NCBI GenBank assembly: GCA_000004985.1 | Contig: GG738880.1 | From: Naegleria gruberi | Lineage: Eukaryota | DNA: 64,000 bases | Reading direction: 5' to 3' (one strand) | Part shown: piece after piece, positions 1 through 63,603 of the stretch | How positions within the stretch are numbered: the first letter of the stretch is position 1 | Layout: the number at the start of each line of letters is the position of its first letter | The notes under the pieces: generated by a model | What the model was told of the DNA's origin: nothing | Databases searched by the model: none | The model's input: only the letters and a program-made list of their open reading frames with translations | Program-made: the position numbers and the translations under genes

Positions 1-351
1 GTGTTTTGTGCAACCATCTAGACAAACTTTTCAAAGTAACAGAACAGGTACCTTGAAAAGATTACAATAACAATCAGGTGTCCTTTAACTCTTTAAAGCA
101 ACAAATCTCCTGATTGGCTGGCAGACCCTATAATTTTGAAACCATTCATTTTGCATTGTTGTTTTGCATCAAAACTCAACAACCATAAAAATTGTCCTCA
201 CAATAAACTGCTGCCCATAACAGAGTCCGACAAGAATACATGAGGAATTTGATAGAAATTTTGATAATGTTATTGATGATGAATAATTTTGCACAGAGTA
301 TTCATCATCCTAATTAATCATCATCATCATGATGGAGGAGGAATATTGAGA

Positions 352-3300
352 ATGTATGAAGCATCATCTTTGGCTTCATCGGAGGAATATAAAACGAGTA
401 GAAATATTGGAAATTATTATCCGTATAGAACAAGTATGAATATTGATGAAGTTTTAGAGTCATCATCATCAATTCAGAGGTCAACTAGAAGCAGGTCACC
501 TATGAGTGGTGGTATTCAACCAGTAGCAATGATTTATATTAATGAAAAAGTTAGTTATGACAATACATCAACATGTAACATTACTTTTCCATGTTCAAAT
601 CTTGGACAAGCTTTGGATTATTTGGCATCATTGGATGAGGAATCGAGATTGGGAATAATCATATTACAAGTGTATTTTATGAGTGATGTGACGACTTGTG
701 AGAATAGGTGGAGAAATGAATTGAATCCTACTATGGAAGTGTTTTTTTTAAACTATCCAACTAGAGAATCTAGAACATTTGATTGTAAAGGACTTAAATA
801 TTTTATTACGGATTTTGTAAACTCGAATTCTAAGTTGGGTATTAACATTTTTGAAATGAGGTTTGAAAATACATCATTTAAACATGCATTGGATATGATT
901 GGGTTCTCTGGATGTGTTTTGGATACAGTTTCTATTATTGTTGGAAAATCTTCAAAGGTGACTATTACCGACTCATTAGTTCTCAAATCAGGTATTAATT
1001 GTATAGAAGGATATTTAGAAACCTCTAATTCTGTATTTAGGAGTACTCAAATTCATGGATTTAATAACATTGGATCAGCAGTAGTACACCCAATCATAAT
1101 GCAAGATACAAAATTGTTGGAAAAATCAACACTTAGTCTCATATCATTTAGAATAACTATAAGCCAGTTTACCATTTCGGATTCTTCACTTGAAATTAAC
1201 TCAGCTCCATATATTGGAATTACTAATTTCACGGCTAGTAATTCACTTTTGAAATTTGAAGTTGTCAATAGAATGGAAATGAGCGAATTTGAAATATTCA
1301 ATAATGTGATACCAGTGCTATTCTCTGGTATAAACATACTTATAATGAATAATGGAACAATTAGAGATTGTGATGTGACTTCTGATGGTGCCCTTGCATT
1401 CAGAACTATTCTTTCAATGAATTTTCAAAAGTTAAAATTTATTAGAAATAGAAGAGGAATGTTTGCTGATAATGTTAGAACCATGTCATTGAAAAGATGT
1501 GAATTTTCACAAAATTATCAAGGAGTTAATTTACAAAACTTTGAAAATAATAGTCATGCAACATCTTCGTTTTATTTCTGCACTTTCATTGATAATTATT
1601 ATCCAGATGGTAATGGAGGTGCTGTTCAAATGATTAGTCAAGATTCTTTGCGTTTTTTTGCTTGTAAATTTGAGAATAATTATGCAAGAAATGGTGGTGC
1701 CATCTATTCAACTTCAGAGACCTCCATTGAGGCTTCTACATTCCGAAATAACAGTGCTGTATTGTACGGAGATTGCTCTGAAATTACTTGTGGAAATGGA
1801 GGCAGTTTTTACGGCAAGTCCTTTATCACATTGGAAGATGTCGAGTTTTCAGACAATAGAGCTATTAAGGGAGGTGCCTGTTTTTTCAATCATGTCACTA
1901 GATTAGACAGTTTTGGGAATCAATTGTTTCACAATAATGTTGCCTCTTTTGGAGGTGATGATATTTTCCTTCATGATACCTTTACTCAAGTTATGCCATC
2001 AGCCAAGTTTGCCCAATCAAATATTGGAAGTTTGAAATTGAAGTCAAACTATGAATCAAGCAAGAATATTTCTGTAGAGGATAGCTATTTGAAATTGTAT
2101 CCTGGACAATCTATTTCTTTCAGATTTGAACTATTTGACATGTATGGAAATCAGATTAGAAAAATACAATCTAGTCCAAGATTTGTATCCAGCAACCATG
2201 GTATTGTCGTAAAAACAGTGGTCAATTCAACAACCAATATTTCATTGAATTCATTTTCCTATGAGGTCAATGAGAAAATACCAAGTGATGATTTCCAAGT
2301 CCTCGTTTCATTTGACGAAAATTTCAAAGATTATATATTGAATATTCGACCAACTCACTGTCCATTTGGATATTCATTCAAACGACAATTTGAATCAGAG
2401 TTTAGTCAATATGCTTGTGTGAAAGAAAATTATGAGGCCATAATTGCATCATCTGTTATGGGAACGGTGCTTATTGTAATAGTATTGACTGGATGCTCAA
2501 TTGCTGCCTATTTTATTGGAACTCGTATGCATAATCTCTACAAGAGAGAACAAGCTGAAAAAAGTTTAGCCAAGAAACTCATAGATAAGCAATTTATATT
2601 TGGGGAACAGTCAGAGTTGACTGAAAGTTTATTGCACTCCAATGGAAAGGCAAAGCAGTTAAAGAGTCAATGTGATAATATGATTATTCCTCTTACAGAT
2701 ATTGAAATTATCAGCAAGATTGGAGAAGGTAGTAATGGTGTTGTGTATAAGGCTCGTTGGCATGGAACTTTTGTTGCATTGAAAACACTCAAAATTAACT
2801 CACTCTCAGAGGAAGAAAATGAAGAATTTGAACATGAAGCTGCATTATTATCAAGTTTGAAACATCCTTCTATTGTTTCATTTTATGGAATTTCAGTTGG
2901 GGTCAATGTCAAGTACATGATTGTTGAATTTATGCCGAATGGAAGTTTGGATCATTTAATTAGAGAATGTAAAAGTGGAAAGGTACATATAACTCTGCGA
3001 CAAAAGATTAATATAATTCTTGGTATTGCCAATGGATTACTCTATTTACACAATCTGAAACCTCTCTCAATCATTCACAGAGACATCAAACCTGGAAATA
3101 TTTTACTAGATCATTCATATCAGGCAAAAGTGAGCGACTTTGGATTATCCAAGCTCACTTCAAATAATGGTTCCTCAACCATGACTTCAAACTTGGGCAC
3201 TGTTCTATATATGGCACCAGAAGTAATCATGGAGGGTGAATATGACATTTCACACAAATTGGACGTCTACAGCTTTGCCATAATCATGTATGAATTATTC

Positions 3301-3639
3301 TTTGAGGAAGCTCCATTCAGTTCAGGTAGCTCCAAACTAAATAGATTTTCCAAAGATGAAAAGGAAGTGAAAAACCTATTGAGTATTCCATGGCTTGTAG
3401 CTAAGGGTGAAAGACCCAAAATTCCATTCACCACAGAGGAGGAACTATCAATGTGGATTGAGGAATTTATAAAGGATGAGAAGGATTTGAATGGTAATGT
3501 TTCACTTTTCAAAGCAGTGCAGGATTATATTGATTTGATGAAGAAGTGTTGGACACAAAATCCCTCCGAAAGACCTACCTTTGCTGAGGTTGTAATTATA
3601 CTTTCGAGAATGTTGTCAAATTATTGGAAAGGAATTTAA
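352..3639 (+). CDS. Receptor-like transmembrane Ser/Thr protein kinase with Pmp-like GGA[IV]/FxxN repeat ectodomain
   Basis: One continuous 1116-aa ORF (frame opens at TTG 289; first in-frame ATG at 352). The N-terminal ~700 aa carry repeated GGAI/GGAV/GGAC and FxxN motifs (NGGAVQM, NGGAIYSTSE..FRNNSA, GNGGSFYG, KGGACFF), typical of polymorphic-membrane-protein/beta-helix repeats. One TM helix follows (VMGTVLIVIVLTGCSIAAYFIG). The C-terminal domain is a protein kinase: glycine loop IGEGSNGVVYKA, VALK lysine, HRDIKPGNILLD catalytic loop, DFG (VSDFGLSKL), APE (YMAPEV). No obvious signal peptide at either candidate start. Confidence 0.8.
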   Translation: MYEASSLASSEEYKTSRNIGNYYPYRTSMNIDEVLESSSSIQRSTRSRSPMSGGIQPVAMIYINEKVSYDNTSTCNITFPCSNLGQALDYLASLDEESRLGIIILQVYFMSDVTTCENRWRNELNPTMEVFFLNYPTRESRTFDCKGLKYFITDFVNSNSKLGINIFEMRFENTSFKHALDMIGFSGCVLDTVSIIVGKSSKVTITDSLVLKSGINCIEGYLETSNSVFRSTQIHGFNNIGSAVVHPIIMQDTKLLEKSTLSLISFRITISQFTISDSSLEINSAPYIGITNFTASNSLLKFEVVNRMEMSEFEIFNNVIPVLFSGINILIMNNGTIRDCDVTSDGALAFRTILSMNFQKLKFIRNRRGMFADNVRTMSLKRCEFSQNYQGVNLQNFENNSHATSSFYFCTFIDNYYPDGNGGAVQMISQDSLRFFACKFENNYARNGGAIYSTSETSIEASTFRNNSAVLYGDCSEITCGNGGSFYGKSFITLEDVEFSDNRAIKGGACFFNHVTRLDSFGNQLFHNNVASFGGDDIFLHDTFTQVMPSAKFAQSNIGSLKLKSNYESSKNISVEDSYLKLYPGQSISFRFELFDMYGNQIRKIQSSPRFVSSNHGIVVKTVVNSTTNISLNSFSYEVNEKIPSDDFQVLVSFDENFKDYILNIRPTHCPFGYSFKRQFESEFSQYACVKENYEAIIASSVMGTVLIVIVLTGCSIAAYFIGTRMHNLYKREQAEKSLAKKLIDKQFIFGEQSELTESLLHSNGKAKQLKSQCDNMIIPLTDIEIISKIGEGSNGVVYKARWHGTFVALKTLKINSLSEEENEEFEHEAALLSSLKHPSIVSFYGISVGVNVKYMIVEFMPNGSLDHLIRECKSGKVHITLRQKINIILGIANGLLYLHNLKPLSIIHRDIKPGNILLDHSYQAKVSDFGLSKLTSNNGSSTMTSNLGTVLYMAPEVIMEGEYDISHKLDVYSFAIIMYELFFEEAPFSSGSSKLNRFSKDEKEVKNLLSIPWLVAKGERPKIPFTTEEELSMWIEEFIKDEKDLNGNVSLFKAVQDYIDLMKKCWTQNPSERPTFAEVVIILSRMLSNYWKGI

Positions 3640-3944: not shown

Positions 3945-6900
3945 ATGCACACGACGACGAAGGTAGTAACAACGTCTTCGTTGGTGGTAGGAGGGATGCA
4001 ACAGCATGAGTCGTCAATAGCTTGCTGTAGTAATGATCAGATAGTGGTTGATGAAAATCATCAGGAACACTACAATCATCATCAGCATCATCAATATGAT
4101 ACAAATCTTGTTCTTTCCTCGGAGCATTATCAGCAACATGTACATCCTATAGTAACAACAACAATGATAAATAATCATTCATCACCAATAGCCTCCCAAA
4201 GTCATCATCACAATAATACCTCTTCATTCGAACAACAAAATAGTGCCACCACACCTGTTCATTATCAAAGTAATTGTAATAACATTCATTCGGAAGCTTT
4301 GTCTTCATCACCCAATTCATGCTCATCGACGACAACCAATAGAAAAAAGTCTATCGGATCAACTTCAACAGAACAAGTATTTGCAACTAATATAATAACA
4401 ACACCAACACGACAACAGGCTATTATTATTGCCACAAATTTTAATGAGGATGATAGCAGCTATACCCGAAGTGAGAGTAGTGACAATATTGTTGTAGATG
4501 TGGATAATATTATTGTGGATACTCTGGACCCAAGACAGCCAGTAGATGATGATAATTTATTGGCCACTACAATTCATGAATTACCTACCTCTCTAAGGAT
4601 TCCTTCATCTCATCAAATTTCAAATCTTCAAAATCAAAACATGTATACTATTCCACCAACAACTAACTCGACCGATTTTGCAACTACCATAATTGTAAAC
4701 AATTCTTCACCAAATCATCAACCAAATGAAACTACTAATCATATTATTGAGCTGGACAGATTACCAAATCCTCCAAAAAGAGCTCACCCAACTCACCCTT
4801 CAATTTATAGGCAAACCAATGAAAATTTTCTCCTTACAATTTATTCGGAATTAATCTATTGGGGAAAGGCAATAGCTGTTGGTCACAGAGATAACCCTCA
4901 CTCGAATAATGAACACTTTATCAGATCTATACCCTATCTTTCCGAATATCCTCATCACGATACAATTCCGAAACAATATCCAAGGAGTTCTACCAATTTT
5001 CATCTGTTACTTGCTGACATGCTCCATATAATATTAGGTTTTTTGGATTGTGCTTCAATATTACGATTTTCTAGGTGTACTACCTATTACTATCACATTT
5101 CACATGCTAATGCACTGTGGGATGAGTATATTTATCTCGAGTGTTATATCAAATTTTCAAAAATTACTCTACCTGAAAGATTTGCAAACCTGTACAATAC
5201 CAAACCAGAGAGAAGACGAGAGCTACTCCAAAACATTGATACTGATGAAAATGCTGATTTAGATTTTCGTCAAAAAAGGCTTTTGAATGCCATCGACAAA
5301 TTCTTGACATTCTATCAGCCCTCAAAAGAAGAATCACTCTATAACAAGTATTCTGAACTGAAAAATGAATATCAACAAAAACTAGTCATTCCTCACTCGA
5401 GAGAAATTGTAGCCATTGAAAATAGTGACCACGAAATAACCATCAGAGAGGTTGAAGAAGAAATGGACGAAGAAGAAGCAGAAGCCAACCAAAGTGCTGA
5501 TGAATCCATCAATATTGAGACAGACTATGATGAAGATATCAATCACTTTTTTGAAACTTTAAATAGTGTTTTTAGAAGAGACGAGCACAGCCAAAACTTG
5601 CAAAGTATTAGAACAACAATTTCTCGAGAGGATTCCTCAAAAAGTAATAACAGTAGTAATAGAAGGAATAGTTTCATGGTGGATGAAAGCTCCAATATTC
5701 CTGTTCCAATAATTATTAATAGAGCCTCTACTGACATGCCATCAACACCAGTTCAGATAGGCAGCAATGCCACTGCCTTTAAAACAGATCTGGTCATTCC
5801 AAATAAGCATTTCAGTATCACATCTGAACAGTTGGAGAATGTTAAAATTTGCCCACCAGAAGAAGAACAACCTCAAGTCTCCTGGTTTGTCAGGTGTAAG
5901 GAAACCATCTCACAATACTATAAGAACTTTTCAGCAGAGGCAACCACCAAGAGAAAAGCAGCATCATCTCACGTAAGACATGCTAGAAGTGCTGTCGATA
6001 GATATTATTCATCTTACTGTATTTTCAGACAAGAGAAAATAAGAAACCCATTCATTAGAAGTAGACTGATGAAGCTCTATATTAATCAAATCAAGAGACG
6101 TTACAGACCAATTACCAGATGGATCAACCATGTGAAAATGAGTTCTTGGCTCTTACTAACCATCTTTGCAGTTCTCTTATTCTTGAAATTGGATGAATAC
6201 ATTAATTGGCCATGGTTTGTTGTTTTTGCTCCAGTGCTTGGTTCCAGTTGTTTATCCATCCTGATTTCTTTATTAGTTTGGACTCCAACCATTGGTTGGC
6301 CAATTGTGCTCTATCGATGGGTTTCAGGAGATGCTGTTGGATTCTGGACAGCCTATGCCTACTGTTTAACACCCAGAGGTAGAATTGTTCAGCTTATAGT
6401 TGCAATCCTGCTGGCCCTAACACCTTGTTGTACCTTTTTCATTTCACTATTCCCCGATGTTCCCCAGTATTTACCTTGCATTATTGTGGCAGCTGCTTGT
6501 CTCATTTGGATGTACACTTGCACACAGATTATTTACAAAACCGGAAAGAGAGTCTATCCTTATTTACTTTTCCTTGTTTGGCTTGGAATGGGAATGTTTT
6601 GTGGAGCGATTATTTTGAAATTTGCCATTCCATTCTTTACAGCTAATGTAAAATGGTATTTAATTTGCTCTCCACTGTACATTGTAGTAATTTTGATTAT
6701 CAGTAAGTTTTATTCATAACTTGAAGCTAACATGTATAGTTTATCAAATCAAACTTTCCATCGATTTGAGCGCAGCCTCATCCAAGACCTGTGTGGGTCT
6801 TATATGGTCAATGACATTCTTTGGTTTCATGTCAGTAATTGTCCTCACAATGGTACTTCTTATTTTAAGAATTGATGAAATTGTGAAATGGCAGTATACC

Positions 6901-8154: not shown

Positions 8155-9873
8155 TTAATTATCAAGGATCATGAGAATTGCCTTTGGAAACAGCTTGCCT
8201 TGCTCAAGAGTAATACTATTATCATCAAAGAAGGTGTTTGGAATGGCTTTCAACCTAAATGATGAATTATTCTCCATTTCAACCATGAGCAATCTCCTGA
8301 GGTCTTCAATGGTTTTAGACTTGTGTATGGTGACAATATACTGCATTGTTGAAGACTTTAACTTGATAGTGCACAATTCCTTTGGATTCAGTAATGCAAT
8401 GCCAACATCTTGTATCTCAATGACAGAGGGATTGTCCTGAGAGGCACTTTGAGTTTCCTTAGTAATAACCTTTTCAATTTCCTCTCTGATTGGAATGACT
8501 TTTCCATTCTTTATCACTTGCTTTGGAAGTTTATCTAAAAGAGCCTTCTTATCAAGTGGGGGTTGTTCCTTTCCATTCTCTTCCACATGTTTTAAATAGT
8601 CCATTCCTCGAATGTTGTTTCCCTCATGTTCCTTCAAATAACTGCCCATTCCAACACTTCTCTCGACTTGTCTTGAAAAGTCCTCACTCGTCTTGTCTAT
8701 GATTTTTAATTTTACTCCATCTGGGTGTCTTTCCTTAAATTCATACGGGAAATATCCATCCACTGTTGTTTGGGAAAATTATCATTGCAATTATCATTCT
8801 GAATGAAAAAAACTTACAAATGTCAGTCAAGAAGGCCTTTGTAATATCCCACTTGTAAGGCTTGAATGGTCCACCCTCAACAACAATTCCATTCTTCCAA
8901 AAGGTAACTCTACAAACTGGTTTAGGTTTCAATTGTTTGATATTTCCATTCTTTGAAACTTCTACTAATTCTTCCTCGTCAATCATCTTGTTAAGTGCTT
9001 CCACTCGCTGTTCCAAAACTTTCATATTGATTCTAGATCCTAGGTCATCATCACTAAGTGGTTTAGGAGATTTGCTTCTTCGTTCCTCTGGAGGCTGAGG
9101 AGTAAATCTGGTATTTTCTGGTCGTGGTTGAGATGATGAGCTACTAGAACTTCCAACATTACTTTGCTCGGATGAAAGCGATTTGAAGGAATGTTTCAAC
9201 CCAGCATTATCCATAAACCTCACGAGAGTATCAATGGTCGATTGTTGCTTGTCCTTCTCCGCTGAAAGCAATTCCATCTTTGTTTTTTGTCTCCCAACAG
9301 TGAGTTGAAGATCCTTAATTTGTTGATCTTTGGTGGATAGCTCAGTTTTTTGTTCGGCACACAATTGCTCCATCTTCTTCAAACGAACTATTAAAGTTGA
9401 GGTAAGATCATCTGTAGCTGCTGTGCTCTCAGGTATCACCTCTGTAATAATGTCAAAATAAATTAGGTCATTAAAAACATACCGTCATCTTCACTATTTA
9501 CAAATATTGGAGGTCTTTGAATGGATGAAGAAGAATCATGAGATAACAAACTCGGTCTACTCGGAGCTATTGGCCTTAGGTTTGAACTTGGGTGGTGTAT
9601 CACTGATGGCTTCATAAATAATTTAGAATTGAGACTCTTCTTATTATTCAATACTTGAATATTATGTTTGCTGTACAATCCATTAGTGACCTTATCACCA
9701 TTGTTACTATTACTACTGTTGCTGCTTATTGCATTATTTGGAGGACCTCCCGAAGAAGAGGGACGAGAATTAGAAGCTCCCTCTCCTCCCAAATAGCCAT
9801 TATTGTTGTTATTATTGTTGATACTATTCGGCGATCTCTTCTTGATCAGCAAATTGTTGTTATCTGAGGACAT
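8155..9873 (-). CDS. p47/Shp1-like SEP-UBX domain protein (p97/Cdc48 cofactor); 3 exons: complement 9483..9873, 8818..9441, 8155..8762
   Basis: Three minus-strand ORFs join in frame through two short introns. One is GTATGT...TTACAG at plus 9442..9482 (41 nt). The other is GTAAGT...AACAG at plus 8763..8817 (55 nt). The spliced product reads ...VTFWKNGIVVEGGPFKPYKWDITKAFLTDI-L-DGYFPYEFKERHPDGVKLKIIDKTSEDF..., a recognisable SEP domain, followed by a C-terminal UBX-like domain (TIKLKSSTMQYIVTIHKSKTIEDLRRLL). The N-terminus is Asn/Ser-rich low complexity instead of a UBA domain; a coiled-coil segment precedes the SEP domain. Confidence 0.7.
8763..8817 (-). other. Spliceosomal intron (55 nt) in the SEP-UBX gene
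   Basis: Minus-strand GTAAGTTTTTTTCATTCAG...CAAACAACAG. Phase-1 join restores the SEP domain. Confidence 0.65.
9442..9482 (-). other. Spliceosomal intron (41 nt) in the SEP-UBX gene
   Basis: Minus-strand GTATGTTTTTAATGACC...ATTATTACAG. Phase-1 join of the N/S-rich first exon to the coiled-coil exon. Confidence 0.6.
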
Positions 9874-11918: not shown

Positions 11919-13461
11919 TACCTTCGTACTTTGTTGTTTTTTTCACAAACACCAACAGACGAATCAAACTAAATAATTAGAAACCTACGAGCAGATCAAA
12001 TATATTGAGAGGATTTTAGGCATTGAGTAATAGAGCCTAGCAGATTACTTGTGGAGAGGAAATTGTAAATAGCAAAACGCAGGTTGAAGAGCTCGATACG
12101 AATACGCAAAGATGTCATCATTCAAAACTATTAGAAACTAATTTTTGGTCAGCTAATCAAAATTGGTTATTGGAATTTACAAGACATTAGACGAAAACAA
12201 TTTAAACCATAAACATGAAAGTTATTGGATTAAAATAATATTTAATTTATATTAGAAAAGTTGATTTCAATTCAGCGGCTCATTAACAAAAATTGCTTCC
12301 TGTTGCTTTGGTATCAATTGGGAGGTTTTACATGAAATGCATGCAATCGTTCACTTGCGAATAAATAATCCATTAAAGAGAATTTCAGTGAATAGTCATT
12401 TTGATTTGTCCCTCTTCCTATGTTGATGACCGAATGTGAAACCAAACATTTGATGAATTATGTAAATTATGTTCAACATGAGAGAACCGTTAAAGAGAGA
12501 GGAGTGCTTTCAAACCCTTATATCCAAAATTCGCTCAAGTTGTCTTCCATCTATCAAGTGCAATGGAATCTGTTTGTGTGGATCGGATAATATTGCAATT
12601 TCCTTTTATGAGCAGGGAGCGAATAGAAATCAAACCTTGCCTTTTAGAAATTCCACCTTAATTGTTGTAAATTCTTGGAATTATTATTTTGTTTTGATTT
12701 TAATCAAGTGATTAATTTTTGCTGGGATGTGAAATACTTCTGTGAAACTTGTGGTTCATTGAACGAAATGGCACAAGTATTCGTTCTGTCTTTGTTCTGA
12801 CGTGGAATGAAATGGGTCATCTCTCAATTTTATGCTGAAGAGTGCCTGAAACTATTGTAAGATGGATTTTTGACACAATTCAACATTAGATCGAGGAACA
12901 AGAGGTAAATTTTCTGTTCAATAAGGAGACTAATTCATTTTGGAAAGTGAGCAGTGTGGTATATGAATCTAAATAAAATTAGTAGATCGATCGAAATAGT
13001 TAGAGGATTTTAGGCTATCCTATCTTGTTGATAAATTTTCCCGCCTTATTCTTGTAAATTTTTTAGATTATTTTATTTTTTAATTAAAAAAAAAGCTGCA
13101 TGTGATAGTCTTTGGATGTTATTGTCTAGTGGGTGCATGGTGTGGTTTACTATTCTTGGGAATTAATTATTATGTTTTTTGTGATATCATGATCAGCATG
13201 ATTCCAAGAATATGTGTCCAGATTATTCTAATCAATTTATGATGATAACAATTTTCCATTAATATTATTCATGGAGTTGATGCACTAAGTGGTCTATATC
13301 CGAGGATCTGGATAACTCGTTACCACATTGATATTTTCGAGTACTACATACGATAAGGACTACGTTCGTTCAACTGGAGTTTATCAACTAATCTAAATGA
13401 ACAAAATAGAATAATTTCCTTTAAGAAAATAAGAAGAAATCTCTTGCACTGTCTTAACAGA

Positions 13462-15921
13462 ATGTTTTCATACGGTGACAATCAACCGAATAACAACAAC
13501 CTTGGCCAATATCAACATCGAAGAGAATCAATAATTGGAGGAAGGACAAAGAAGAAGTCAACTTCACGATCTAAACAATCGGATTTCCCAGTTGCTTTCT
13601 ACTCTGATTTTGATAGTGATGATATTGATGAGGCTCCTATCATTCGTCTAAATAATTCTAAAGAAGAATCAAACGAAACTGAATCAAACATCCAAACAAC
13701 ACCACGAAAGAAAAAACGAAAGAAACGACAATCTTCTTGTGGAGAATGCGGAGTAAACTGTAGAAGATATGGTTTCCGAATTATGAACCTAATTTTTGTC
13801 TTGTTTGTTTTTCAAACATTTTTTGGGATTTTGGCTTCTTTCGTCTTGCTGTTCTCTAGTGGATCCGATATTTACAAAAACACAAATGGATACGAAAGGT
13901 GGCAAATGAGCTACAAACTAAGGATGGGAGTTGTGAAAATTCAAAATTCTGCTAGAACTCTGGTTGACTTGATGTTTTACACTCTCTACATTGGAAGATT
14001 GATGGAATTGGATCATGAAATTGAGTGGATGCGATTATTACGAACAGCTGAGAGAATGATTATCAGTCGACAAATATCTTCCATTCAATTTATACGATAT
14101 GATGATTATTATATACTGTATAGAAACCATCTATTCGAAACGAGCAAACATTTCAATACATCAGAGGGCTTGAAAAAACATTTCGTTTATGCTGTAAGGA
14201 ATAATAGTGCACTCCTATTGTCGTATTATGATTTGCAATTGGTTGATAGAGAACACCATCATATTACTTCACCAACGGATAGTGATTGGTATAGGGAGGT
14301 GCAGAGTTCACGTAAGGCGTCTGAGCCTTGTTGGACTCACGCATATTTGAATGAGGAGAACTTGTATTCAGTTTATTTTGCCTATCCAATTTATAGCCAA
14401 ATTCCAACAAGAAACCTGAGCATGTCAGAGGTTAATGAAACTATTGTTGCTACTCAACCAAAAGATTTAGTGCAGTTTAATGGCACATCTGAGGATTATT
14501 TATTTGGAATTGTTGCATTAGAGTTCAAGATCCAATATGTCAACACCTTTCTGAACACTTCCTCTTCGCTACAATCATTCATAATCAATGGAACTGGATA
14601 TGTTTTGGCAAGGAGTAGTGATAGCGACTCTTCTATTGATGAACTTGCTCGTGAAATATATAATACTGGATTACTAAACATGAATCTGAGTGCCAACGAA
14701 TCGTACATTTTTGATTATAAGGGGAAAGTAGTGGAGATTTCAACAGTTAGAGATAATTACAATTTAACTTGGGCTGTTGTGACAACGAGTTTGGAAAGAA
14801 GTTATTTCTCAGAAGTCATATCCACGGGTGTTGTTTCCGTCATTTTATTTATTATCTTATTTGTATTAGAAACCTTAATTGTATTGTGTATTGTTCAATC
14901 TATTAACCAGCCTCTGATAGATATTACCAAACAAATGAATAATCTCATTTCATTTAAAGGCTTGGAATCTCCATACAAGAAACATGCAACAGTATTCAAT
15001 GAAATTAGAGAAATGGATGAAAATATACAAATTACACAGAGAGGAATATTTGCATTCAGCAAGTATGTTCCACACATTGTTGCCAAGATGATTGTCTCAA
15101 ATATGCAAGAGTATGGGAAAATTGGTTTGGAATTAGAACCTAGCATGACAGTCATGTATTGTGGAGTCAATAATTTTGCAGCACTTGCTGAAAAAACCGA
15201 AACCACAGCATTTATTCGAGTCATTACCGAATATTATAGCTCTATATCACAGGTAATTGAAGCTCATTATGGAATTATTGATAAATTCATTGAAGGTACT
15301 ATTATGATATTTTGGAATGAAAAATCATTCAGATGTGCCAATCATGAATCGCGAGCCTGTAAAGCTGCCATTGAGTGTATGGAAATATTAGAAGGTTTAA
15401 ACACTAAATGGAATAATTTAATGGGTATTCAATTGAGTATTTCTATTGGAATCACATGTGGTGAAATGCTTGTTGGTTGTCTAGGAAATAAGAGTAGAAT
15501 GTCATTTACTGTGATTGGTGATGCCTGTAATATTGCATTAAGATTACAATCCCTAGCTCCAAATTATTGTGCCATCCTTGTAAGTGGCGAGATTGTTGAG
15601 AGAGTGAAGGAAGAGTTTGTTTTGTATTTTGTTGATCTAATCAAATTGAGAGGAAAGAGTAATCCAACATGTGTTTACAATCTAGTAGCATTCAGGAGTG
15701 AGGCTTCTGATTTGGAGAAAAAGTTGGAAAATGACTTGTTGCAAGCCAAAGAGCTTCTCTTCGCTGGTCAGTATCTCCAATTTTATAGTGTTTGTGAAAG
15801 ATTGGCTGATGTGTGGAGTGATTCGGCAATAGTTGTAAAGTTGTTCGAAAGAGCTAAACGATTGGTTGCATCAGAAGAGAATATAAGCGATTCAGACAAG
15901 TCTGATAGTGTCTTTTTATGA
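13462..15921 (+). CDS. Class III adenylyl/guanylyl cyclase, membrane-anchored, with an extracytoplasmic sensor region between two TM helices
   Basis: Continuous ORF (opens at TTG 13444; first ATG at 13462). TM1 is IMNLIFVLFVFQTFFGILASFVLLF. A ~330-aa loop follows, then TM2 VVSVILFIILFVLETLIVLCIVQSI. The C-terminal cyclase homology domain has the motifs VMYCGVNNFAALAEK, IDKFIEGTIMIFW and IGITCGEMLVGCLGNKSRMSFTVIGDACNIALRLQSLA. Confidence 0.8.
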   Translation: MFSYGDNQPNNNNLGQYQHRRESIIGGRTKKKSTSRSKQSDFPVAFYSDFDSDDIDEAPIIRLNNSKEESNETESNIQTTPRKKKRKKRQSSCGECGVNCRRYGFRIMNLIFVLFVFQTFFGILASFVLLFSSGSDIYKNTNGYERWQMSYKLRMGVVKIQNSARTLVDLMFYTLYIGRLMELDHEIEWMRLLRTAERMIISRQISSIQFIRYDDYYILYRNHLFETSKHFNTSEGLKKHFVYAVRNNSALLLSYYDLQLVDREHHHITSPTDSDWYREVQSSRKASEPCWTHAYLNEENLYSVYFAYPIYSQIPTRNLSMSEVNETIVATQPKDLVQFNGTSEDYLFGIVALEFKIQYVNTFLNTSSSLQSFIINGTGYVLARSSDSDSSIDELAREIYNTGLLNMNLSANESYIFDYKGKVVEISTVRDNYNLTWAVVTTSLERSYFSEVISTGVVSVILFIILFVLETLIVLCIVQSINQPLIDITKQMNNLISFKGLESPYKKHATVFNEIREMDENIQITQRGIFAFSKYVPHIVAKMIVSNMQEYGKIGLELEPSMTVMYCGVNNFAALAEKTETTAFIRVITEYYSSISQVIEAHYGIIDKFIEGTIMIFWNEKSFRCANHESRACKAAIECMEILEGLNTKWNNLMGIQLSISIGITCGEMLVGCLGNKSRMSFTVIGDACNIALRLQSLAPNYCAILVSGEIVERVKEEFVLYFVDLIKLRGKSNPTCVYNLVAFRSEASDLEKKLENDLLQAKELLFAGQYLQFYSVCERLADVWSDSAIVVKLFERAKRLVASEENISDSDKSDSVFL

Positions 15922-15932
15922 GTGGAAGCCAT

Positions 15933-18900
15933 CTAACTAATGATTTTAAATTGTTTGGCTAGTAATTGTTGCATATTTAGCAATACACTTGCAAATTCCT
16001 TATTTCTGCCAATTTCTAACAGTTGAGGATGAAGGAAAATATCGCTGGTTATGCACGTCTCTCCAGGAACATGTGATTCAAAGATTGTATCCTTTATCTT
16101 TGTGCATGATTCATAACTGTGATTGGCTATGAATAGTTTGTCCTCGACAGAAATAGTTGGATGGGACAATAATGTTTCAATCAAGGCCTTCCACTCATTA
16201 ACACAAGAAGAGTTGGCAGAGTCAATTAACTTTCTAAAGAAATCTCTCTTGAAATACGTTTCAAATAATTGATGAAATAAAGGAGGACATGCCCACATTA
16301 TTGAACACATGTAAACAACAAAGGATGGCCGAAAAGTTTCCTCATTTCTTATATCATTCATAATGGAAGAAACAATAAATTCGTTCCACATACTCTGAGC
16401 AAGTATTGATTCTGACATATTCCTCTTAATTTCCAACAAGTAAAGAGATTTTACAGAATAAAGTGCCAATAAATCTTCATTCTATACATAGGTATCAAAA
16501 AATATTAGTCGACACTGAAGATATGATTGTACTTACACTTAAAATATTATTCAGTAATGAATAAGCCAAGGTAAAACTCCAAACTTTCGAATGATCAATC
16601 TTGCTACTTGTTGACAATATTGTGTGGAATGTACATGTTGAAAGAATTCTTAAAAGTGGAGAATCATTATTCAAATATTGAATGGTAAATTTCAACAATG
16701 TTTCACAAATTTGGGAATTCTCTTCGCTTGATCCCACCATACTACGAAGCAAGGCTGTTATGAGTTGAAAGATGCTAATAATAAAACCACTTGCAATATT
16801 CTCTGAATCAAATAAAGTGAGTAATTTCTCTATGGATTGAAGTGACCTTGTCAAGTTGGATTTGACTTGAAAGCTAGAGAGTCTCTGTAAAGAAATGCCA
16901 TTATCATCTGCTGATCTTATCAAGTAGATAATTTTCGTTAGTATATTCATAGTGAGGCCAATAGTCTTCAAATCTAGCTTTAGGTCTGAAAGAGAATGAA
17001 ATATTTTAGAATAGTGATTAAAAATAGTTGAGAGATAAACAACACTTCTCGAGAAATCCAATATGATGCTAGTGCATTTAGTAATCTCATCAAGAGTTGA
17101 TGTAAGGTTGGTGTTACATCCCTTCTTGAGTGAAATATAAATATTACTCAAAGTAGGTTCTATTATTTTCTGAATGACAAGTGTAGAGTCCTTCTCATGA
17201 ACCAGTGCTTCTGTTGTGAAGTATTCGCTCAGTATTCTCAAGAATTGGGTAGTTGAATTTTTCGATGTTGAATTTTCCATAAAGAGTGAAACTAGAGTTG
17301 GTACAAGATCCACTCTGGCATCCTTTAAAATACCAAGCAAATACGACTCTTGGCTATGTGATTGCATGTTGATAAGACCAGATAATAAGGTACGTGTAAT
17401 ACCACTTGTTGTGCTCTCCTGTTGAGAAGCCCATTTTACAAAGAGTGAGGTTCTCTCCTTGAAGGAAAAATTTGTCAACTTCATACACTCCAGATACCAA
17501 CCCAGAACCAAGTTAGATATTGTGGAGGGAATTGTGCCGAAAGAATAATGTAAGGAAAGACCAACAAAGAGTTCGGAAAGTCTGAGCCTGGAAAGAGTGC
17601 TCAAATTACTAAGGCTCTTATCAAGAATCATTGTTGAAATAGTGGACAATAATGTATTCAGTGGTGTAATAATTTCATTATTAAAAAGGGTGTAATGTAA
17701 AAGAGCAATTCCTAATGCACAAAGATCACTTCGTAACATACCAACAATGCTAGTTGGAGAAAAATCAATCTGATCCAATATGGAGCTCTCTACAGGTGAA
17801 TCCAATAAATCACTAGAGTGCAATACTAGGACTAATAGCTGTTTGTGAGCAAGTGTCATTTCACAGGATGAATTAATAGATAATGATACAAATTTCTTTT
17901 GCAATAGATAATCAAGAATACTGGCCCTTTTTTGTTGAACAAGTCTTTGATAGAAATAGTCGTGACATGTTCTCAAAAATCTTTCATGAAGACTCTCAGA
18001 GATATTAACATGCTCAAGAATGAGCTCATCAATTCTTGATAACAAATCTGATTGTTGAAATTCACTCAATCTTCCAAGCCCAATAGCACAAATCATAAAA
18101 GTAGCAAGTCCCTCTTCAACTTCATCCAAAACTCCATTTTTCAAAATAGTGCTAAATAATACTGTTAAATGGTGTACCAGTTTACTCGTATCGAGTGTAG
18201 ATTGTTGTATGAACATATAGCAAATCTCACAGAGAGTCTTGAAATTCAAGCCAATTGTTGTAACCATCTCCTTTACAACATCACTAGGAAAATTAATTAT
18301 TGTGATACTGATCTGTTCGCACAATGAATTGAAATTATTTTGAAAGTCTTTCTGGGTAGTAAGGCCAAATTCTACACTATTCAAATAGTACATGTAAAAT
18401 ATGCTCAGAATATTATTTGACAAATTCAAGTGGTCAATAGTTTCAACTTTGGATGGAAAAATCTTTAACAATGCTGTAATACCTAACTCTTGGAAATTAT
18501 GCAAAAAATTAGTACCAACCAAATTGTTTCCAGAAACCAAAAGGGAGTGAAATATGGCTAAAATTGATGGGCTTATTTCTCCAGTAGCATCCTTGTTAAG
18601 AGCTTCAAAAAGAAAGTCACTAATATCTGAATTTAAAAATTGAACTCTGGCATCTTGACTTTTTGTTGAGCATTCCAGTATGAGTTGGTTGCAAATAATT
18701 TGTATGGAAATGTTTGGAGAGAGAATCACTGATATGAGAGCATTAATTAATCTTTGGTAGTCAATGATGGAGAGTACATCAAGAGCCTCCCTGTCAAACC
18801 TAACAAGACAATGCAAAACAGCCAAAGCATTAATATGAAGATCTTCATCCTCAGCCTTCAACAAACAAGCAAGAACAGTGTCAATGAATGTCTCATTGGA

Positions 18901-19891
18901 TTTGTTGTTCCACACACCATGTGCAATTCGAGTACAATCACTGTGTAGTTGAATAATTTGGCATAATTTCAATATGATGAATAGAACATCAGACTTTTGT
19001 TCATTTTCCGTCTTGTTGAATGATAGCTGATTGGAAGTAAAGTTGTTGATGAGGATGATGAGCAGTGAAGAGAAGGCTTCCACAGGTATGTTCACTACAT
19101 TCCAACAATCTTCAGATTGAAGACTTCTACAAATCTTGTCAACTAATAAACAGAGAAAGTTGGCACAAACATCACCAAATTGTTGTTGTTCTTCACTTAT
19201 TCCACACATCTAAAAGAACATCACATCCAGGTGGATTCGAATATTGAAGTTTAGAATATAGAGTTTAAAGCAAACTTACCACTTGCACAATTAGAGGAAA
19301 ATCTCTGGAAAGTAACTTATCAGTTGGAACAATTTCCAACCATAAGCGAATAACCTCTTCAAGTATGTTGTTCTCTCCCAATGATGATGCTTGGTATGCT
19401 GATTTAGTCTTCAAGCCTCCTTGACTATTGTCCAACACGAGTGATGATGAAGCAGGAAGGATAGCTTTCAAACAAGTGGAAAGTAACAAAGGACCTACAT
19501 GATCCAAATCATTGACCATTGAATTGATTTTAGGATTCATCCCAGAGGCTAGTGAAGATATAATCATGGCCGAGGAAGAAGGACAAAGAAGTTGCTTCAA
19601 CACATCTAATAGTTTAATCTTCCTCAACGATAATTGGCTCTTATCAAACAGGAATGCCAAGGCACATTCAAGACAAATTGCTTGTTGTGTTGCTTGTTGT
19701 CCAATAGGAAAAGCACTAGTTACATTGTTATGGATTGATGTTGTTCCTCCTATGGTAGATGGTAATGAAGATAGGATGGAGAGAGGATTATGTAAATGAT
19801 GAGAGGAAGCAGCCATTGATGATGAAAGTAGACTACTCGGAAGGCTTGTTGTTGTGGATGATCCAGAAATTGTCTTGTAGTTGAACATCAT
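15933..19891 (-). CDS. Large (~1280 aa) alpha-helical ARM/HEAT-like repeat protein, function unknown; 3 exons: complement 19280..19891, 16537..19209, 15933..16481
   Basis: Three minus-strand ORFs join in phase 0 via two introns. One is GTAAGTTTGCTTTAAAC...TTCTTTTAG at plus 19210..19279 (70 nt). The other is GTAAGTACAATC...CTATGTATAG at plus 16482..16536 (55 nt). The protein is Leu-rich and helical throughout with no catalytic motifs. Confidence 0.55.
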
Positions 19892-30031: not shown

Positions 30032-30040
30032 TTTTTTCTA

Positions 30041-63300: not shown

Positions 63301-63603
63301 ACAAAGGGCTCAACTCTTATTTCATTCTCTGCACTCATTGACAAGATGAAACCAAACATGGAAGGAGGAAGTGGAGCCATGAGTTCTCTTGCCTCTTCCA
63401 CTGCCAGTATTTTAGGATCCAAGGAAAATAATTCTCCAAACAATGCCACATCAACAGCCTCTACAACAGCCAACAATAATCCTTCAAACAACTCGACCAA
63501 TTGGCAAGGTATTGGAAGTGGTAATCCTGGTAAATCAAATGAAGAAGTTAAGGAAAATCTTAAAAAGATCTTTACTTTTGGTTTGGCAGGCAAGAAGCAA
63601 TAA
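60362..63603 (+). CDS. LisH-domain and HEAT-repeat protein (RELCH/KIAA1468-like); 2 exons: 60362..62260, 62305..63603
   Basis: N-terminal LisH motif (DYVANYLIKNNFMLTALEFYQELLEEG) and a second LisH-like motif (QVVNYLVKDYLVKQGYKISAISFTDE). Coiled-coil segments follow, then HEAT repeats (ILVATLQSHPDAEVRETLSESLFNL..., ILVAEACGELSHYV..., DEVRASVVINLAKLV...). The 44-nt intron GTAAGTATATGG...ATATTTAAAG (62261..62304) joins in phase 0 and continues the HEAT repeats (ILPALITVASDMESDIKMKAVRGLGILA). Confidence 0.65.

What the first reader, a model, noticed from the sequence alone, without database searches (positions are those of the whole stretch)
289..3639. Receptor-type kinase whose ectodomain is built from Chlamydia-Pmp-like GGA[IV]/FxxN beta-helix repeats, but no signal peptide is visible
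Several GGAI/GGAV + FxxN pairs (e.g. NGGAIYSTSETSIEASTFRNNSA) lie upstream of a single TM and a complete Ser/Thr kinase domain. That pairs an autotransporter/adhesin-type repeat with a eukaryotic kinase. The N-terminus lacks a hydrophobic leader at both candidate starts. An upstream exon may therefore lie outside the window; AATTTTGCACAG at ~285-296 looks like a 3' splice acceptor. Alternatively the topology is unusual.
Basis: partly seen in the sequence, partly recalled or inferred. Interest (0 to 1): 0.55.

Follow-up and report, generated by a model that had tools for sequence, protein, structure and literature searches.

The report
Naegleria receptor kinase with beta-helix ectodomain
This is a Naegleria gruberi gene for a membrane receptor kinase whose outer part is a beta-helix carrying Pmp-type repeats; it belongs to an uncharacterised amoeba-specific family, and its "missing" signal peptide is probably encoded 50 bases upstream in another reading frame.

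Summary
The window is Naegleria gruberi. ORF 289-3639 contains the annotated "predicted protein" (starts at ATG 352, 1095 aa, 100% identity).

- FxxN/GG[AS]x repeats at aa 384-560, with a marginal Pfam Chlam_PMP hit (21.0 bits against a 20.6 cut-off).
- One TM (aa 717-745).
- A complete, catalytically intact TKL-type kinase.

The gene is not a one-off. At least six N. gruberi paralogues, plus N. fowleri and Willaertia magna relatives, share the same collinear layout. 10 of 12 aligned members hit Chlam_PMP.

The signal-peptide puzzle is probably a gene-model problem. ATG 240 opens a signal-peptide-like mini-ORF (MRNLIEILIMLLMMNNFAQ) in a different frame. A short intron starting at GT 298, or any 1-base deletion at 286-317, joins it to the main ORF. 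Which of the two applies is unresolved.

The closest non-heterolobosean repeat relatives that could be identified are algal, archaeal and rickettsial, not chlamydial. The result is real and moderately interesting: a new variant of a known kind.

The parts
240..297 (+). Candidate exon 1. ATG plus 19 codons (MRNLIEILIMLLMMNNFAQ) forms a signal-peptide-like n/h/c region, in frame 3 relative to the main ORF in frame 1.
   Evidence: Translation. The 11-residue hydrophobicity maximum is 2.81. Only 21 of 1163 (1.8%) ATG-initiated peptides of at least 19 codons in the window look like this. Paralogue signal peptides end in similar N-x-F-A / G-N-F motifs, though the similarity is not statistically significant.
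298..361 (+). Zone of the frame break. The candidate short phase-1 intron has donor GTATTC at 298 and a CCTAAT branch-like motif at 309-314. The in-frame acceptors are AG 337 (40 nt), AG 340 (43 nt) and AAG 361 (64 nt). Alternatively there is a 1-bp frameshift.
   Evidence: All frame-compatible GT..AG pairs are enumerated. Candidate window introns are 37-70 nt, but the scan that found them required GT[AT][ATG]GT donors. Deleting any single base at 286-317 also restores one continuous ORF from ATG 240.
352..528 (+). Annotated start (ATG 352) and a low-complexity Ser/Glu/Tyr-rich linker (aa 22-80). This is probably the mature N-terminal linker, not intron.
   Evidence: P0001 starts here. Frame 1 stays open across 289-520, 77 codons, with P about 0.003 by composition. 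The closest paralogue P0078 and W. magna P0116 have comparable linkers between signal peptide and cap.
529..594 (+). Conserved N-terminal cap motif: [FY]-[IL]-[DN] ... C-x5-PC (MIYINEKVSYDNTSTCNITFPC).
   Evidence: Family alignment A1, columns 265-295. Coordinates.
1138..1980 (+). Confidently modelled right-handed parallel beta-helix (ORF aa 284-564).
1438..1968 (+). Pmp-type repeat region: 9 FxxN motifs, 5 of them followed by GG[AS]x or GG. The Pfam Chlam_PMP hit is at aa 460-475 (nt 1666-1713).
   Evidence: 549 library proteins match with E<=1e-3; among the 150 listed, the multi-stretch repeat-protein matches fall inside this stretch.
2056..2424 (+). Membrane-proximal beta-sandwich stalk with the family-conserved YPGQ (aa 604) and CPxG[FY]...C (aa 691-710) motifs. 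The fold is possibly Ig-like.
   Evidence: A1 conservation: G606, C691, P692 and C710 are invariant. Model pLDDT is 50-77 here. Foldseek gives weak Ig-like and S-layer matches with E above 0.07. Low confidence.
2437..2523 (+). Single transmembrane helix (aa 717-745). The N-flank is acidic and the C-flank basic.
   Evidence: Kyte-Doolittle maximum 2.36. Flanks are ...KENYE | TM | RMHNLYKREQAEKSLAKK.
2524..2700 (+). Juxtamembrane segment with the family signature K-R-E-x-A-E-K ... K-L-x-D-K-Q-F-I-F-G and I-I-P-[IL]-x-D-I.
   Evidence: Alignment A1, columns 1190-1290; A756 is nearly invariant and E757 and I800 are invariant.
2701..3594 (+). TKL-type Ser/Thr protein kinase domain (aa 805-1102). 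All catalytic motifs are present and there is no intron.
   Evidence: Pkinase 3.1e-56 and PK_Tyr_Ser-Thr 2.3e-50. Motifs. Best PDB relatives are CTR1 (3e-42), TAK1, IRAK4, RAF and CERK1.
3637..3639 (+). Stop codon (TAA).

Best explanation
The gene encodes a type I receptor-like Ser/Thr kinase of the TKL group. It belongs to an uncharacterised family that so far appears restricted to Heterolobosea (Naegleria gruberi, N. fowleri, Willaertia magna).

Shown from sequence, homology or model:
- An extracellular right-handed parallel beta-helix whose C-terminal coils carry Pmp-type FxxN / GGA[IV] repeats.
- A conserved beta-sandwich stalk.
- One TM helix and a conserved juxtamembrane motif.
- A catalytically complete kinase.

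Inferred:
- The protein enters the ER through a cleavable signal peptide encoded at 240-297.
- The public gene model misses this because it lies in another frame.
- It is joined to the main ORF by a short phase-1 intron beginning at GT 298, with acceptor at 337, 340 or 361.
- The beta-helix binds an extracellular ligand, most plausibly a glycan or the surface of a prey or partner cell, as other beta-helix adhesins and Pmp proteins do.
- Ligand-driven clustering then activates the kinase by trans-phosphorylation, as in other single-pass receptor kinases.

Sub-probabilities:
- Receptor-kinase architecture and family membership: about 0.9.
- 240-297 is the true signal peptide: about 0.7-0.75.
- Joined by an intron rather than a frameshift, given that it is the signal peptide: about 0.55-0.6.
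- Ligand is a glycan or cell surface: about 0.4.
For: Identity and domains:
- 100% match to the N. gruberi predicted protein.
- Pkinase 3e-56 and Chlam_PMP above the gathering cut-off.
- Motif counts well above shuffles.
- TKL relatives are the best PDB matches.
- Catalytic motifs are intact.

Fold:
- The AF2 model has a confident beta-helix core.

Family:
- There are collinear single-stretch matches to P0077, P0078, P0079, P0086, P0113, P0116, P0128 and others.
- These are named as N. gruberi, N. fowleri and W. magna proteins.
- Alignment A1 shows invariant cap, repeat, stalk, juxtamembrane and kinase positions.
- Chlam_PMP hits 10 of 12 members, best E 5.7e-13.

Topology:
- Five full-length paralogues have N-terminal signal peptides.
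- The TM flanks obey the positive-inside rule.

Signal peptide in the window:
- The mini-ORF is seen.
- Only 1.8% of comparable ATG peptides are signal-like, and about one such ATG is expected in the 110-nt upstream zone.
- Frame-compatible short introns exist, with lengths typical of this window.
- The CCTAAT branch-like motif resembles that of the candidate intron at window 9442-9482, minus strand.
- One candidate intron in the window would also use a donor without G at +5: 53159-53207, GTAATT.
- An N. fowleri paralogue shows the same pattern. A signal-peptide-like ORF lies 300 nt upstream of the annotated ATG and is cut off by an in-frame TAA. The sequence is identical in two independent assemblies.
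Against: - The donor GTATTC lacks the G at +5 and T at +6 seen in the one homology-supported intron (GTAAGT). The scan only looked for GT[AT][ATG]GT donors, so it cannot say how common weak donors are.
- Acceptors 337 and 340 are GAG. None of the shortest candidate introns has G at -3.
- No transcript or alternative protein model containing the leader exists in the 5.8-billion-protein collection; P0001's cluster has a single member.
- W. magna paralogues and the N. gruberi-like paralogue contig L001 have the signal peptide contiguous with the ectodomain, so an intron at this position is not a family feature.
- The similarity of the mini-ORF to paralogue signal peptides is not significant against shuffles.
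- The Chlam_PMP score for this protein alone is marginal.
- The N-terminal about 200 residues of the model are low confidence.
- Ligand and signalling mechanism are pure inference.
Confidence: 0.6

Rival explanations
1. The signal peptide is the same (ATG 240), but there is no intron. The reference sequence carries a 1-bp insertion between 286 and 317. This would be an assembly error, a null allele of the sequenced strain, or a very recent pseudogenisation in a fast-evolving paralogue family.
For: - Deleting any one of 32 consecutive bases (286-317) yields one continuous ORF from ATG 240 to the stop.
- The break lies beside a (CAT)n/AT-rich microsatellite-like stretch.
- The candidate donor and two of the three candidate acceptors are poor.
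- Other public models of this family are visibly defective (P0226, P0077, P0086).
Against: - The rest of the 1116-codon ORF is intact with all catalytic residues, so any inactivation must be very recent.
- The N. fowleri paralogue has a comparable interruption that is reproduced in two independent assemblies. That makes a sequencing artefact unlikely there and suggests a biological device such as an intron.
- A base-call error falling in a specific 32-nt zone of a finished assembly is rare a priori (own knowledge, not tested).
Confidence: 0.25
2. The public model is right. Translation starts at ATG 352 and there is no cleavable signal peptide. The upstream mini-ORF is a chance or regulatory uORF. 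The protein either reaches the ER by an unconventional route or keeps its N-terminal domain in the cytosol.
For: - No in-frame hydrophobic leader exists.
- Trichomonad Pmp-like proteins traffic through the ER although, according to their authors, no signal peptides are detectable (PMC6701047).
- About 2-4% of random ATG peptides in this AT-rich genome look signal-like.
Against: - Five full-length paralogues with the same ectodomain have classical signal peptides.
- A roughly 700-residue N-terminal domain with 15 Cys ahead of a single TM is not expected to translocate without one (established knowledge of type I versus type III insertion).
- With ATG 240 and two more ATGs at 329-334 upstream, scanning ribosomes would rarely reach 352 unless transcription starts after about 335.
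Confidence: 0.1
3. The leader exon lies upstream of the window, and AATTTTGCACAG|AG (285-296) is the 3' splice site.
For: TTTTGCACAG is a plausible pyrimidine-rich acceptor, and frame 1 is open from 289.
Against: - It would require an intron of more than 296 nt, whereas the shortest candidate introns found in the window are 37-70 nt.
- No ORF with a leader is visible in 1-239.
- It leaves the adjacent signal-like ATG ORF as a coincidence, at P about 0.02-0.04.
Confidence: 0.04
4. The Pmp module was acquired by horizontal transfer from Chlamydiae, which infect amoebae, and was then fused to a eukaryotic kinase.
For: The Pfam family is named after Chlamydia Pmps. Chlamydia-related bacteria do live in amoebae (own knowledge).
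Against: - The best non-heterolobosean matches that carry a source name are Caulerpa (green alga), Methanomicrobiales and Methanobacteriaceae MAGs and a Rickettsiales MAG. None is chlamydial.
- The same module-plus-kinase layout occurs in the amoebozoan Protostelium.
- Identities are only 30-37% over short repeat stretches, so no donor can be named.
Confidence: 0.03

Closest known systems
Chlamydial polymorphic membrane proteins (Pmp; type V autotransporters; Pfam PF02415 repeat)
   Same: Both have FxxN and GGA[ILV] tetrapeptides recurring about once per beta-helix coil. In Pmps these motifs map to the coils of a predicted beta-helix (PMC10715098 and PMC11166332, abstracts). The fold modelled here is also a parallel beta-helix. 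Both are expected to be surface-exposed.
   Different: There is no Pmp middle domain and no autotransporter beta-barrel; the C-terminus is a TM helix plus kinase. Only 2 strict GGA[IV] motifs are present and the HMM score is marginal. This is a eukaryotic gene. No specific sequence affinity to Chlamydiae was found.
Trichomonad Pmp-like surface proteins (e.g. TVAG_212570, TVAG_140850)
   Same: Both are eukaryotic proteins in which FxxN/GGA repeats are followed by a single TM helix instead of the bacterial autotransporter domain. The trichomonad proteins increase adhesion when over-expressed (PMC6701047).
   Different: Trichomonad proteins have a short cytoplasmic tail with endocytic motifs. This protein has a roughly 370-residue cytoplasmic part with an active-looking TKL kinase. 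No orthology was shown.
Single-pass receptor-like kinases of the TKL group (plant RLK/Pelle such as CERK1/LysM-RLKs; animal IRAK/TAK1/RAF as cytosolic relatives)
   Same: The layout is ectodomain, one TM, juxtamembrane segment and TKL-type Ser/Thr kinase with an HRDxKxxN catalytic loop. CTR1, TAK1, IRAK4, RAF and CERK1 are the best solved relatives.
   Different: The ectodomain is a beta-helix with Pmp repeats, not LRR, LysM, lectin or malectin. Whether the kinase belongs to the RLK/Pelle clade was not tested. It has a roughly 35-residue insert after the APE motif.
Heterolobosean paralogues: N. gruberi XP_002679420 (P0078), XP_002670975 (P0077), XP_002676060 (P0228), XP_002669923 (P0226), XP_002670288 (P0128); N. 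fowleri XP_044567378 and CAG4708412; Willaertia magna KAL9658702, KAL9649164 and others
   Same: All share a collinear architecture: signal peptide, cap C-x5-PC, beta-helix, Pmp repeats, YPGQ stalk, CPxG, TM, KxEKAEK...DKQFIFG, then kinase. Identity is 22-35%.
   Different: This copy has degenerate repeats, an intronless kinase domain (paralogues have kinase introns), and a signal peptide displaced into another frame. No orthologue above 50% identity exists in the databases.
Protostelium nocturnum EP01117_P010373 (P0009) and unnamed environmental proteins P0003 and P0005
   Same: All combine a beta-helix and/or Chlam_PMP ectodomain with a TM and a protein kinase (Pfam PF13229 and/or PF02415 plus PF07714). 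P0009 has a clear signal peptide.
   Different: There are many more repeats (about 30 or more). The P0009 kinase has an HRDLAARN (Tyr-kinase-like) catalytic loop. Ectodomain similarity is limited to the repeats. This is probably independent domain shuffling.

Membership tests
Chlamydial Pmp autotransporter family | Multiple GGA[ILV] and FxxN tetrapeptide repeats; Pfam PF02415 at or above the gathering score | tested here: met
   There are 2 GGA[IV] motifs (0.04 expected), 4 GG[AS]x motifs and 9 clustered FxxN motifs. PF02415 scores 21.0 bits against a cut-off of 20.6, which is marginal. The aligned paralogue set scores far better: 10 of 12 members, best E 5.7e-13.
Chlamydial Pmp autotransporter family | C-terminal autotransporter beta-barrel (type V secretion) preceded by the Pmp middle domain | tested here: not met
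   Pfam finds only kinase families C-terminal to the repeats. The C-terminus is a TM helix plus kinase.
Chlamydial Pmp autotransporter family | Passenger domain folds as a parallel beta-helix | tested here: met
Trichomonad-type eukaryotic Pmp-like surface proteins | Pmp repeats followed by a single C-terminal TM and a short cytoplasmic tail with endocytic motifs | tested here: not met
   Repeats and TM are present, but the cytoplasmic part is about 370 aa with a kinase domain. Definition taken from PMC6701047.
Receptor-like protein kinase (single-pass, type I) | Complete eukaryotic protein kinase domain with catalytic residues, C-terminal to a single TM | tested here: met
   Pkinase 3.1e-56. 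GEGSNG, VALK, HRDIKPGN, DFG and APE are present. The TM is at aa 717-745.
Receptor-like protein kinase (single-pass, type I) | N-terminal signal peptide and extracellular orientation of the N-terminal domain | tested here: inconclusive
   There is no in-frame leader. A signal-like mini-ORF lies at 240-297 in another frame and needs an intron or a 1-bp correction. The positive-inside rule and the paralogues' signal peptides favour N-out. No dedicated signal-peptide predictor and no transcript data were available.
TKL kinase group | Kinase domain most similar to TKL members, with a Ser/Thr-type HRDxKxxN catalytic loop | tested here: met
   Top PDB sequence matches are CTR1 (3e-42), TAK1, IRAK4, TNNI3K, RAF and CERK1. 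This is classification by best hits only; no phylogeny was made.
RLK/Pelle (IRAK) clade | Monophyly of the kinase domain with plant RLKs, Pelle and IRAK in a kinase phylogeny | not tested
   IRAK4 and LysM-RLKs are among the hits, but so are MAP3K-like TKLs. A tree with curated TKL families is needed.
Heterolobosean Pmp-repeat receptor kinase family (unnamed; N. gruberi, N. fowleri, W. magna) | Collinear cap C-x5-PC, beta-helix with FxxNxA..GGAIY coils, YPGQ stalk, CPxG..C, TM, K-x-E-K-A-E-K..D-K-Q-F-I-F-G, I-I-P-I-x-D-I, then kinase | tested here: met
   There are single-stretch alignments over up to 700 residues, E from 9e-30 to 1e-8. Invariant and near-invariant columns run across all modules. 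Organisms are identified.

The most novel reading that the evidence does not exclude
Heterolobosean amoebae may possess their own expanded family of pattern-recognition-style receptor kinases. A Pmp-type beta-helix would bind surface glycans of bacterial prey, or of other amoebae, and signal directly through a TKL kinase. This would be an independently evolved analogue of plant RLK immunity and feeding receptors. Some members, including this one and an N. fowleri paralogue, would have the signal-peptide exon separated by a short weak-donor intron, so that surface expression could be switched by splicing.
Probability: 0.15. Interest if true: 0.6.

Novelty: new variant of a known kind. Interest (0 to 1): 0.33.

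Why it matters
Receptor kinases outside animals and plants are poorly mapped. My full-text searches found no paper on Naegleria receptor kinases or on Pmp-repeat kinases. A lineage-specific family that couples an adhesin-type beta-helix to a TKL kinase would give candidates for how Naegleria senses prey, surfaces or partners. That includes the pathogen N. fowleri, which has members of the family.

There is also a practical point. The public model of this gene, and of several paralogues, is N-terminally wrong. Secretome and surface-proteome predictions for Naegleria will therefore miss them.

By itself the gene is an ordinary member of a domain-shuffled receptor class. It is not a new principle.

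Tried and rejected
- **Long intron (298-457, TTTTAG acceptor, or 298-523/526).** This would remove the annotated N-terminus. I rejected it as the main model because frame 1 stays open through the whole stretch (P about 0.02 for 53 codons, about 0.003 for 77). Paralogues P0078 and P0116 also have comparable linkers.
Rejected as too short compared with the 37-70 nt candidate introns in the window.
- **Search for a transcript-derived or re-annotated protein with the leader.** None was found. Two word-indexed searches and one exhaustive HMMER search returned only P0001 at high identity. I ran no further search on the candidate spliced isoforms for that reason.
- **The look-up of encoding contigs for P0001 and P0078.** Neither is on record, so the N. 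gruberi genomic context outside the window is unavailable.
- **Metagenome scan for near-identical loci from other strains.** Nothing found.
- **Conserved intron after the signal peptide in paralogues.** Not found in W. magna or in the N. gruberi-like contig L001.
- **Similarity of the mini-ORF to paralogue signal peptides.** Not significant against shuffles.
- **Literature on the N. gruberi splice-site consensus.** Nothing usable; the genome paper is not held.
- **Chlamydial origin.** Not supported.
- **Antisense ORFs inside 289-3639.** All are 94 aa or shorter and were not pursued.

Full report
**Origin and gene**

The window is AT-rich (GC 0.32-0.38) and gene-dense, with long ORFs on both strands. 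The ORF at 289-3639 (+), 1116 codons from a mechanical TTG start, contains the 1095-aa "predicted protein [Naegleria gruberi]" P0001 at 100% identity, which starts at ATG 352. The window is therefore N. gruberi nuclear DNA. The finding is a real gene that is annotated but uncharacterised.

**Checking the observation**

- Pfam gives Pkinase (E 3.1e-56, aa 806-1102) and PK_Tyr_Ser-Thr (2.3e-50).
- Pfam also gives one Chlam_PMP repeat at aa 460-475, scoring 21.0 bits against a curated cut-off of 20.6. This is a marginal pass.
- Strict GGA[ILV] occurs twice where 0.04 are expected (0 of 2000 shuffles reach 2). GG[AS]x occurs four times. FxxN occurs 12 times against 5.5 expected (P=0.005).
- Nine FxxN motifs are packed into aa 384-550. 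Five of them are followed within 4-19 residues by a GG motif.
- There is one strong hydrophobic segment, aa 717-745. Its N-flank is acidic and its C-flank strongly basic (RMHNLYKREQAEKSLAKK). By the positive-inside rule this puts the kinase in the cytoplasm.
- The kinase has GEGSNG, VALK, HRDIKPGN, DFG and APE.
- Its best solved relatives are all TKL-group kinases: CTR1 (3e-42), TAK1, IRAK4, TNNI3K, RAF and LysM/CERK1 receptor kinases.

The descriptive core of the finding is therefore correct. Two qualifications apply. Recognisable Pmp repeats cover only about a quarter of the ectodomain. And the HMM evidence for this protein alone is thin.

**Fold**

I built an AlphaFold2 model of aa 75-715 on a 19-sequence family alignment. 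Overall confidence is modest (mean pLDDT 64.6). The core is mostly confident: 10-residue-block pLDDT is mostly 80-97 for model residues 230-470 (ORF aa about 304-544), apart from a dip to 31-35 at model residues 267-290, and the structure there is all short strands.

Foldseek on the whole model was weak. It pointed the same way for the helix, and to Ig-like or S-layer domains for the membrane-proximal part. That stalk assignment is low confidence.

Published structure predictions show that chlamydial FxxN/GGA motifs recur once per beta-helix coil (PMC10715098 and PMC11166332, abstracts). The repeat-and-fold relation seen here matches that.

**It is one of a family**

An exhaustive HMMER search with the ectodomain found 549 proteins at E<=1e-3. 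Among the 150 listed, most are repeat-rich proteins whose best-matching stretch falls within aa 340-575. About a dozen align in a single collinear stretch of up to 700 residues, with E from 9e-30 to 1e-8.

These collinear hits are:
- N. gruberi XP_002670975, XP_002679420, XP_002670288, XP_002669923 and XP_002676060.
- N. fowleri CAG4708412 and XP_044567378.
- Willaertia magna KAL9658702, KAL9644148, KAL9649164 and KAL9657879.

The alignment (A1) shows a shared plan:
1. Signal peptide, with a variable linker after it.
2. A cap with [FY]-[IL]-[DN]...C-x5-PC.
3. A beta-helix whose last coils read FxxNxA..GGAIY.
4. A stalk with YPGQ and CPxG..C.
5. A TM helix.
6. A juxtamembrane K-x-E-K-A-E-K..D-K-Q-F-I-F-G and I-I-P-I-x-D-I.
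7. The kinase.

Chlam_PMP hits 10 of 12 members, best E 5.7e-13, and Beta_helix hits 2. The window's copy is a repeat-degenerate member of a genuine Pmp-repeat family.

No orthologue above 50% identity exists in the collections, so the family evolves fast.

The same module combination, beta-helix/Pmp plus TM plus kinase, also occurs in the amoebozoan Protostelium nocturnum and in unnamed environmental eukaryote-like proteins.

The best non-heterolobosean repeat matches that carry a source name come from Caulerpa, methanogen MAGs and a Rickettsiales MAG, not from Chlamydiae. The "Chlamydia" in the name says nothing about origin.

**The signal-peptide question**

Neither in-frame start has a hydrophobic leader. 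However, five full-length paralogues (P0078, P0086, P0113/P0228, P0115 and P0116/P0227) begin with ordinary signal peptides. One is therefore expected here.

Translating the 288 bases upstream shows, in frame 3, ATG 240 followed by MRNLIEILIMLLMMNNFAQSIHHPN*. This has a basic n-region, an 11-residue hydrophobic core (Kyte-Doolittle 2.81) and an N-N-F-A-Q end. That end resembles the ...E-N-S-F-A|S and ...E-G-N-F of paralogues.

In this window only 21 of 1163 ATG-initiated peptides of at least 19 codons (1.8%) have such features. About one such ATG is expected in a 110-nt zone. A chance occurrence right in front of a gene that needs a signal peptide has P of about 0.02-0.04.

**How the mini-ORF is joined to the main ORF**

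The two frames overlap at 289-314. Two simple solutions exist.

(a) *A phase-1 intron with donor GT at 298.*
- The in-frame acceptors are 337, 340 (40 and 43 nt) or 361 (64 nt).
- The shortest candidate introns I could delineate in the window are 37-70 nt. One intron supported by a paralogue protein is 48 nt.
- The candidate contains CCTAAT 23 nt before the first AG, like the candidate intron at window 9442-9482 on the minus strand.
- Against it, the donor is GTATTC, whereas the homology-supported intron has GTAAGT. The scan only searched for GT[AT][ATG]GT donors, so it cannot measure how often weak donors occur.
- Also against it, acceptors 337 and 340 are GAG.
- One other plausible window intron would use a donor without +5 G: 53159-53207, GTAATT, which joins two long ORFs in frame. 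It is unverified.

(b) *A 1-bp excess in the reference.*
- Deleting any single base at 286-317 gives one continuous ORF from ATG 240.

Longer introns that would remove the annotated N-terminus are disfavoured. Frame 1 stays open for 77 codons (P about 0.003), and paralogues P0078 and P0116 have similar linkers.

**A parallel case in N. fowleri**

The N. fowleri paralogue P0079/CAG4708412 is also annotated without a signal peptide. Upstream of its annotated ATG, locus L002 has an ATG 300 nt further up. This ATG opens MTRSRRKSHTHVSAASSLLSMGVCLLLFPILIKFIL..., in the same frame as the annotated ATG, and the ORF is cut by a single TAA.

Several short GT..AG introns would remove the stop, for example 2330-2389 at 60 nt. 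The sequence is identical in an independent Logan assembly, so it is not an assembly error.

In both loci where I could inspect the DNA upstream of an apparently leaderless family member, a displaced leader ORF is present. This favours a biological explanation, namely a weak-donor intron after the signal-peptide exon, though not decisively.

W. magna paralogues and the N. gruberi-like contig L001 have contiguous signal peptides. The intron is therefore not ancestral to the family.

No transcript-derived protein with the leader exists in the databases, and a metagenome scan found no other strain. Transcript data are needed to settle this.

**Mechanism**

Shown: the domain order, the beta-helix prediction, the intact catalytic motifs, the family conservation and the topology signals.

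Inferred:
- The protein is a type I plasma-membrane receptor.
- The beta-helix is a binding surface. All close structural analogues bind or process polysaccharides or act as adhesins. Trichomonad Pmp-like proteins increase adhesion (PMC6701047).
- Ligand-induced clustering activates the TKL kinase, as in other single-pass receptor kinases.
- The conserved juxtamembrane motif suggests a family-specific regulatory or docking element.

No catalytic residues for a glycan-degrading activity were examined.

**Comparison and novelty**

This is not a member of the chlamydial Pmp autotransporter family, because there is no barrel. It is not a trichomonad-type Pmp either, because it has a kinase tail. 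It shares only the repeat and beta-helix module with both.

It works like, and is built like, a TKL receptor-like kinase. Whether it belongs to the RLK/Pelle clade was not tested.

My literature searches found nothing on Naegleria receptor kinases or on Pmp-repeat kinases. I rate it as a new variant of a known kind, inside an unnamed heterolobosean family, and of moderate interest. The concrete correction is to the gene model: the start is probably ATG 240.

Noticed in passing
window 49834-56281 (+): Two adjacent long ORFs can be joined in frame by a 49-nt GT..AG intron (53159-53207, donor GTAATT) into a 2133-aa protein. The first ORF (49834-53193) has many EGF/teneurin-type EGF repeats plus weak Kelch-like hits. 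The second (53201-56281) has a GPS motif, about 7 hydrophobic segments and a C-terminal RGS domain. Together they would form an adhesion-GPCR-like receptor with a built-in RGS domain.
   Followed up: partly
L002:2201-2501 (N. fowleri contig ERZ2098899 NODE_113); same sequence in L005: The N. fowleri paralogue P0079/CAG4708412 is annotated without a signal peptide. A signal-peptide-like ORF (MTRSRRKSHTHVSAASSLLSMGVCLLLFPILIKFIL...) starts 300 nt upstream in the same frame and is interrupted by one TAA. The sequence is identical in two independent assemblies.
   Followed up: partly
proteins P0226, P0077, P0128 (N. gruberi), P0086 (W. magna; locus L004): Several public gene models of this family look defective. 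P0226 starts about 100 residues inside the protein compared with the over-90%-identical environmental copy P0115, which has a signal peptide. P0077 starts inside the beta-helix and P0128 starts without a signal peptide or cap region. P0086 carries a 993-nt 'intron' that fuses a truncated kinase to an unrelated C-terminal region.
   Followed up: partly
window, both strands: 6703-6739(+), 62261-62304(+), 8763-8817(-), 9442-9482(-), 16482-16536(-), 19210-19279(-), 31192-31237(-), 32072-32134(-): These are short candidate spliceosomal introns (37-70 nt) with GTAAGT, GTATGT or GTTTGT donors and TAG, CAG or AAG acceptors that link long ORFs. They were found with a scan that required GT[AT][ATG]GT, so donors without G at +5 would have been missed.
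   Followed up: partly
window 13444-15921 (+): An 825-aa ORF with a C-terminal adenylate/guanylate cyclase catalytic domain (PF00211, E 1.4e-13).
   Followed up: no
window 21990-23840 (+): A cytosolic-carboxypeptidase-type M14 peptidase: the N-terminal CCP domain plus Peptidase_M14.
   Followed up: no
window 3945-6719 (+), immediately downstream of the kinase gene: A 924-aa ORF with no Pfam hit. It has a His/Gln/Asn/Ser-rich N-terminal half and a hydrophobic, apparently multi-spanning C-terminal part. A candidate 37-nt intron (6703-6739, GTAAGT...GCTAACATGTATAG) would extend it past the apparent stop.
   Followed up: no
window 30020-30060 (-): Two long minus-strand ORFs (30041-31072 and 29039-30031) are separated by only 9 nt (tga tag aaaaaa ATG). 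They are either two very tightly packed genes or an unrecognised splice. A 28-nt GTAAGA..CAG candidate does not keep the frame.
   Followed up: partly
window 60362-63603 (+): A LisH/HEAT-repeat ORF (60362-62302) is probably continued into the next ORF (62401-63603) by a 44-nt GTAAGT intron at 62261-62304.
   Followed up: no
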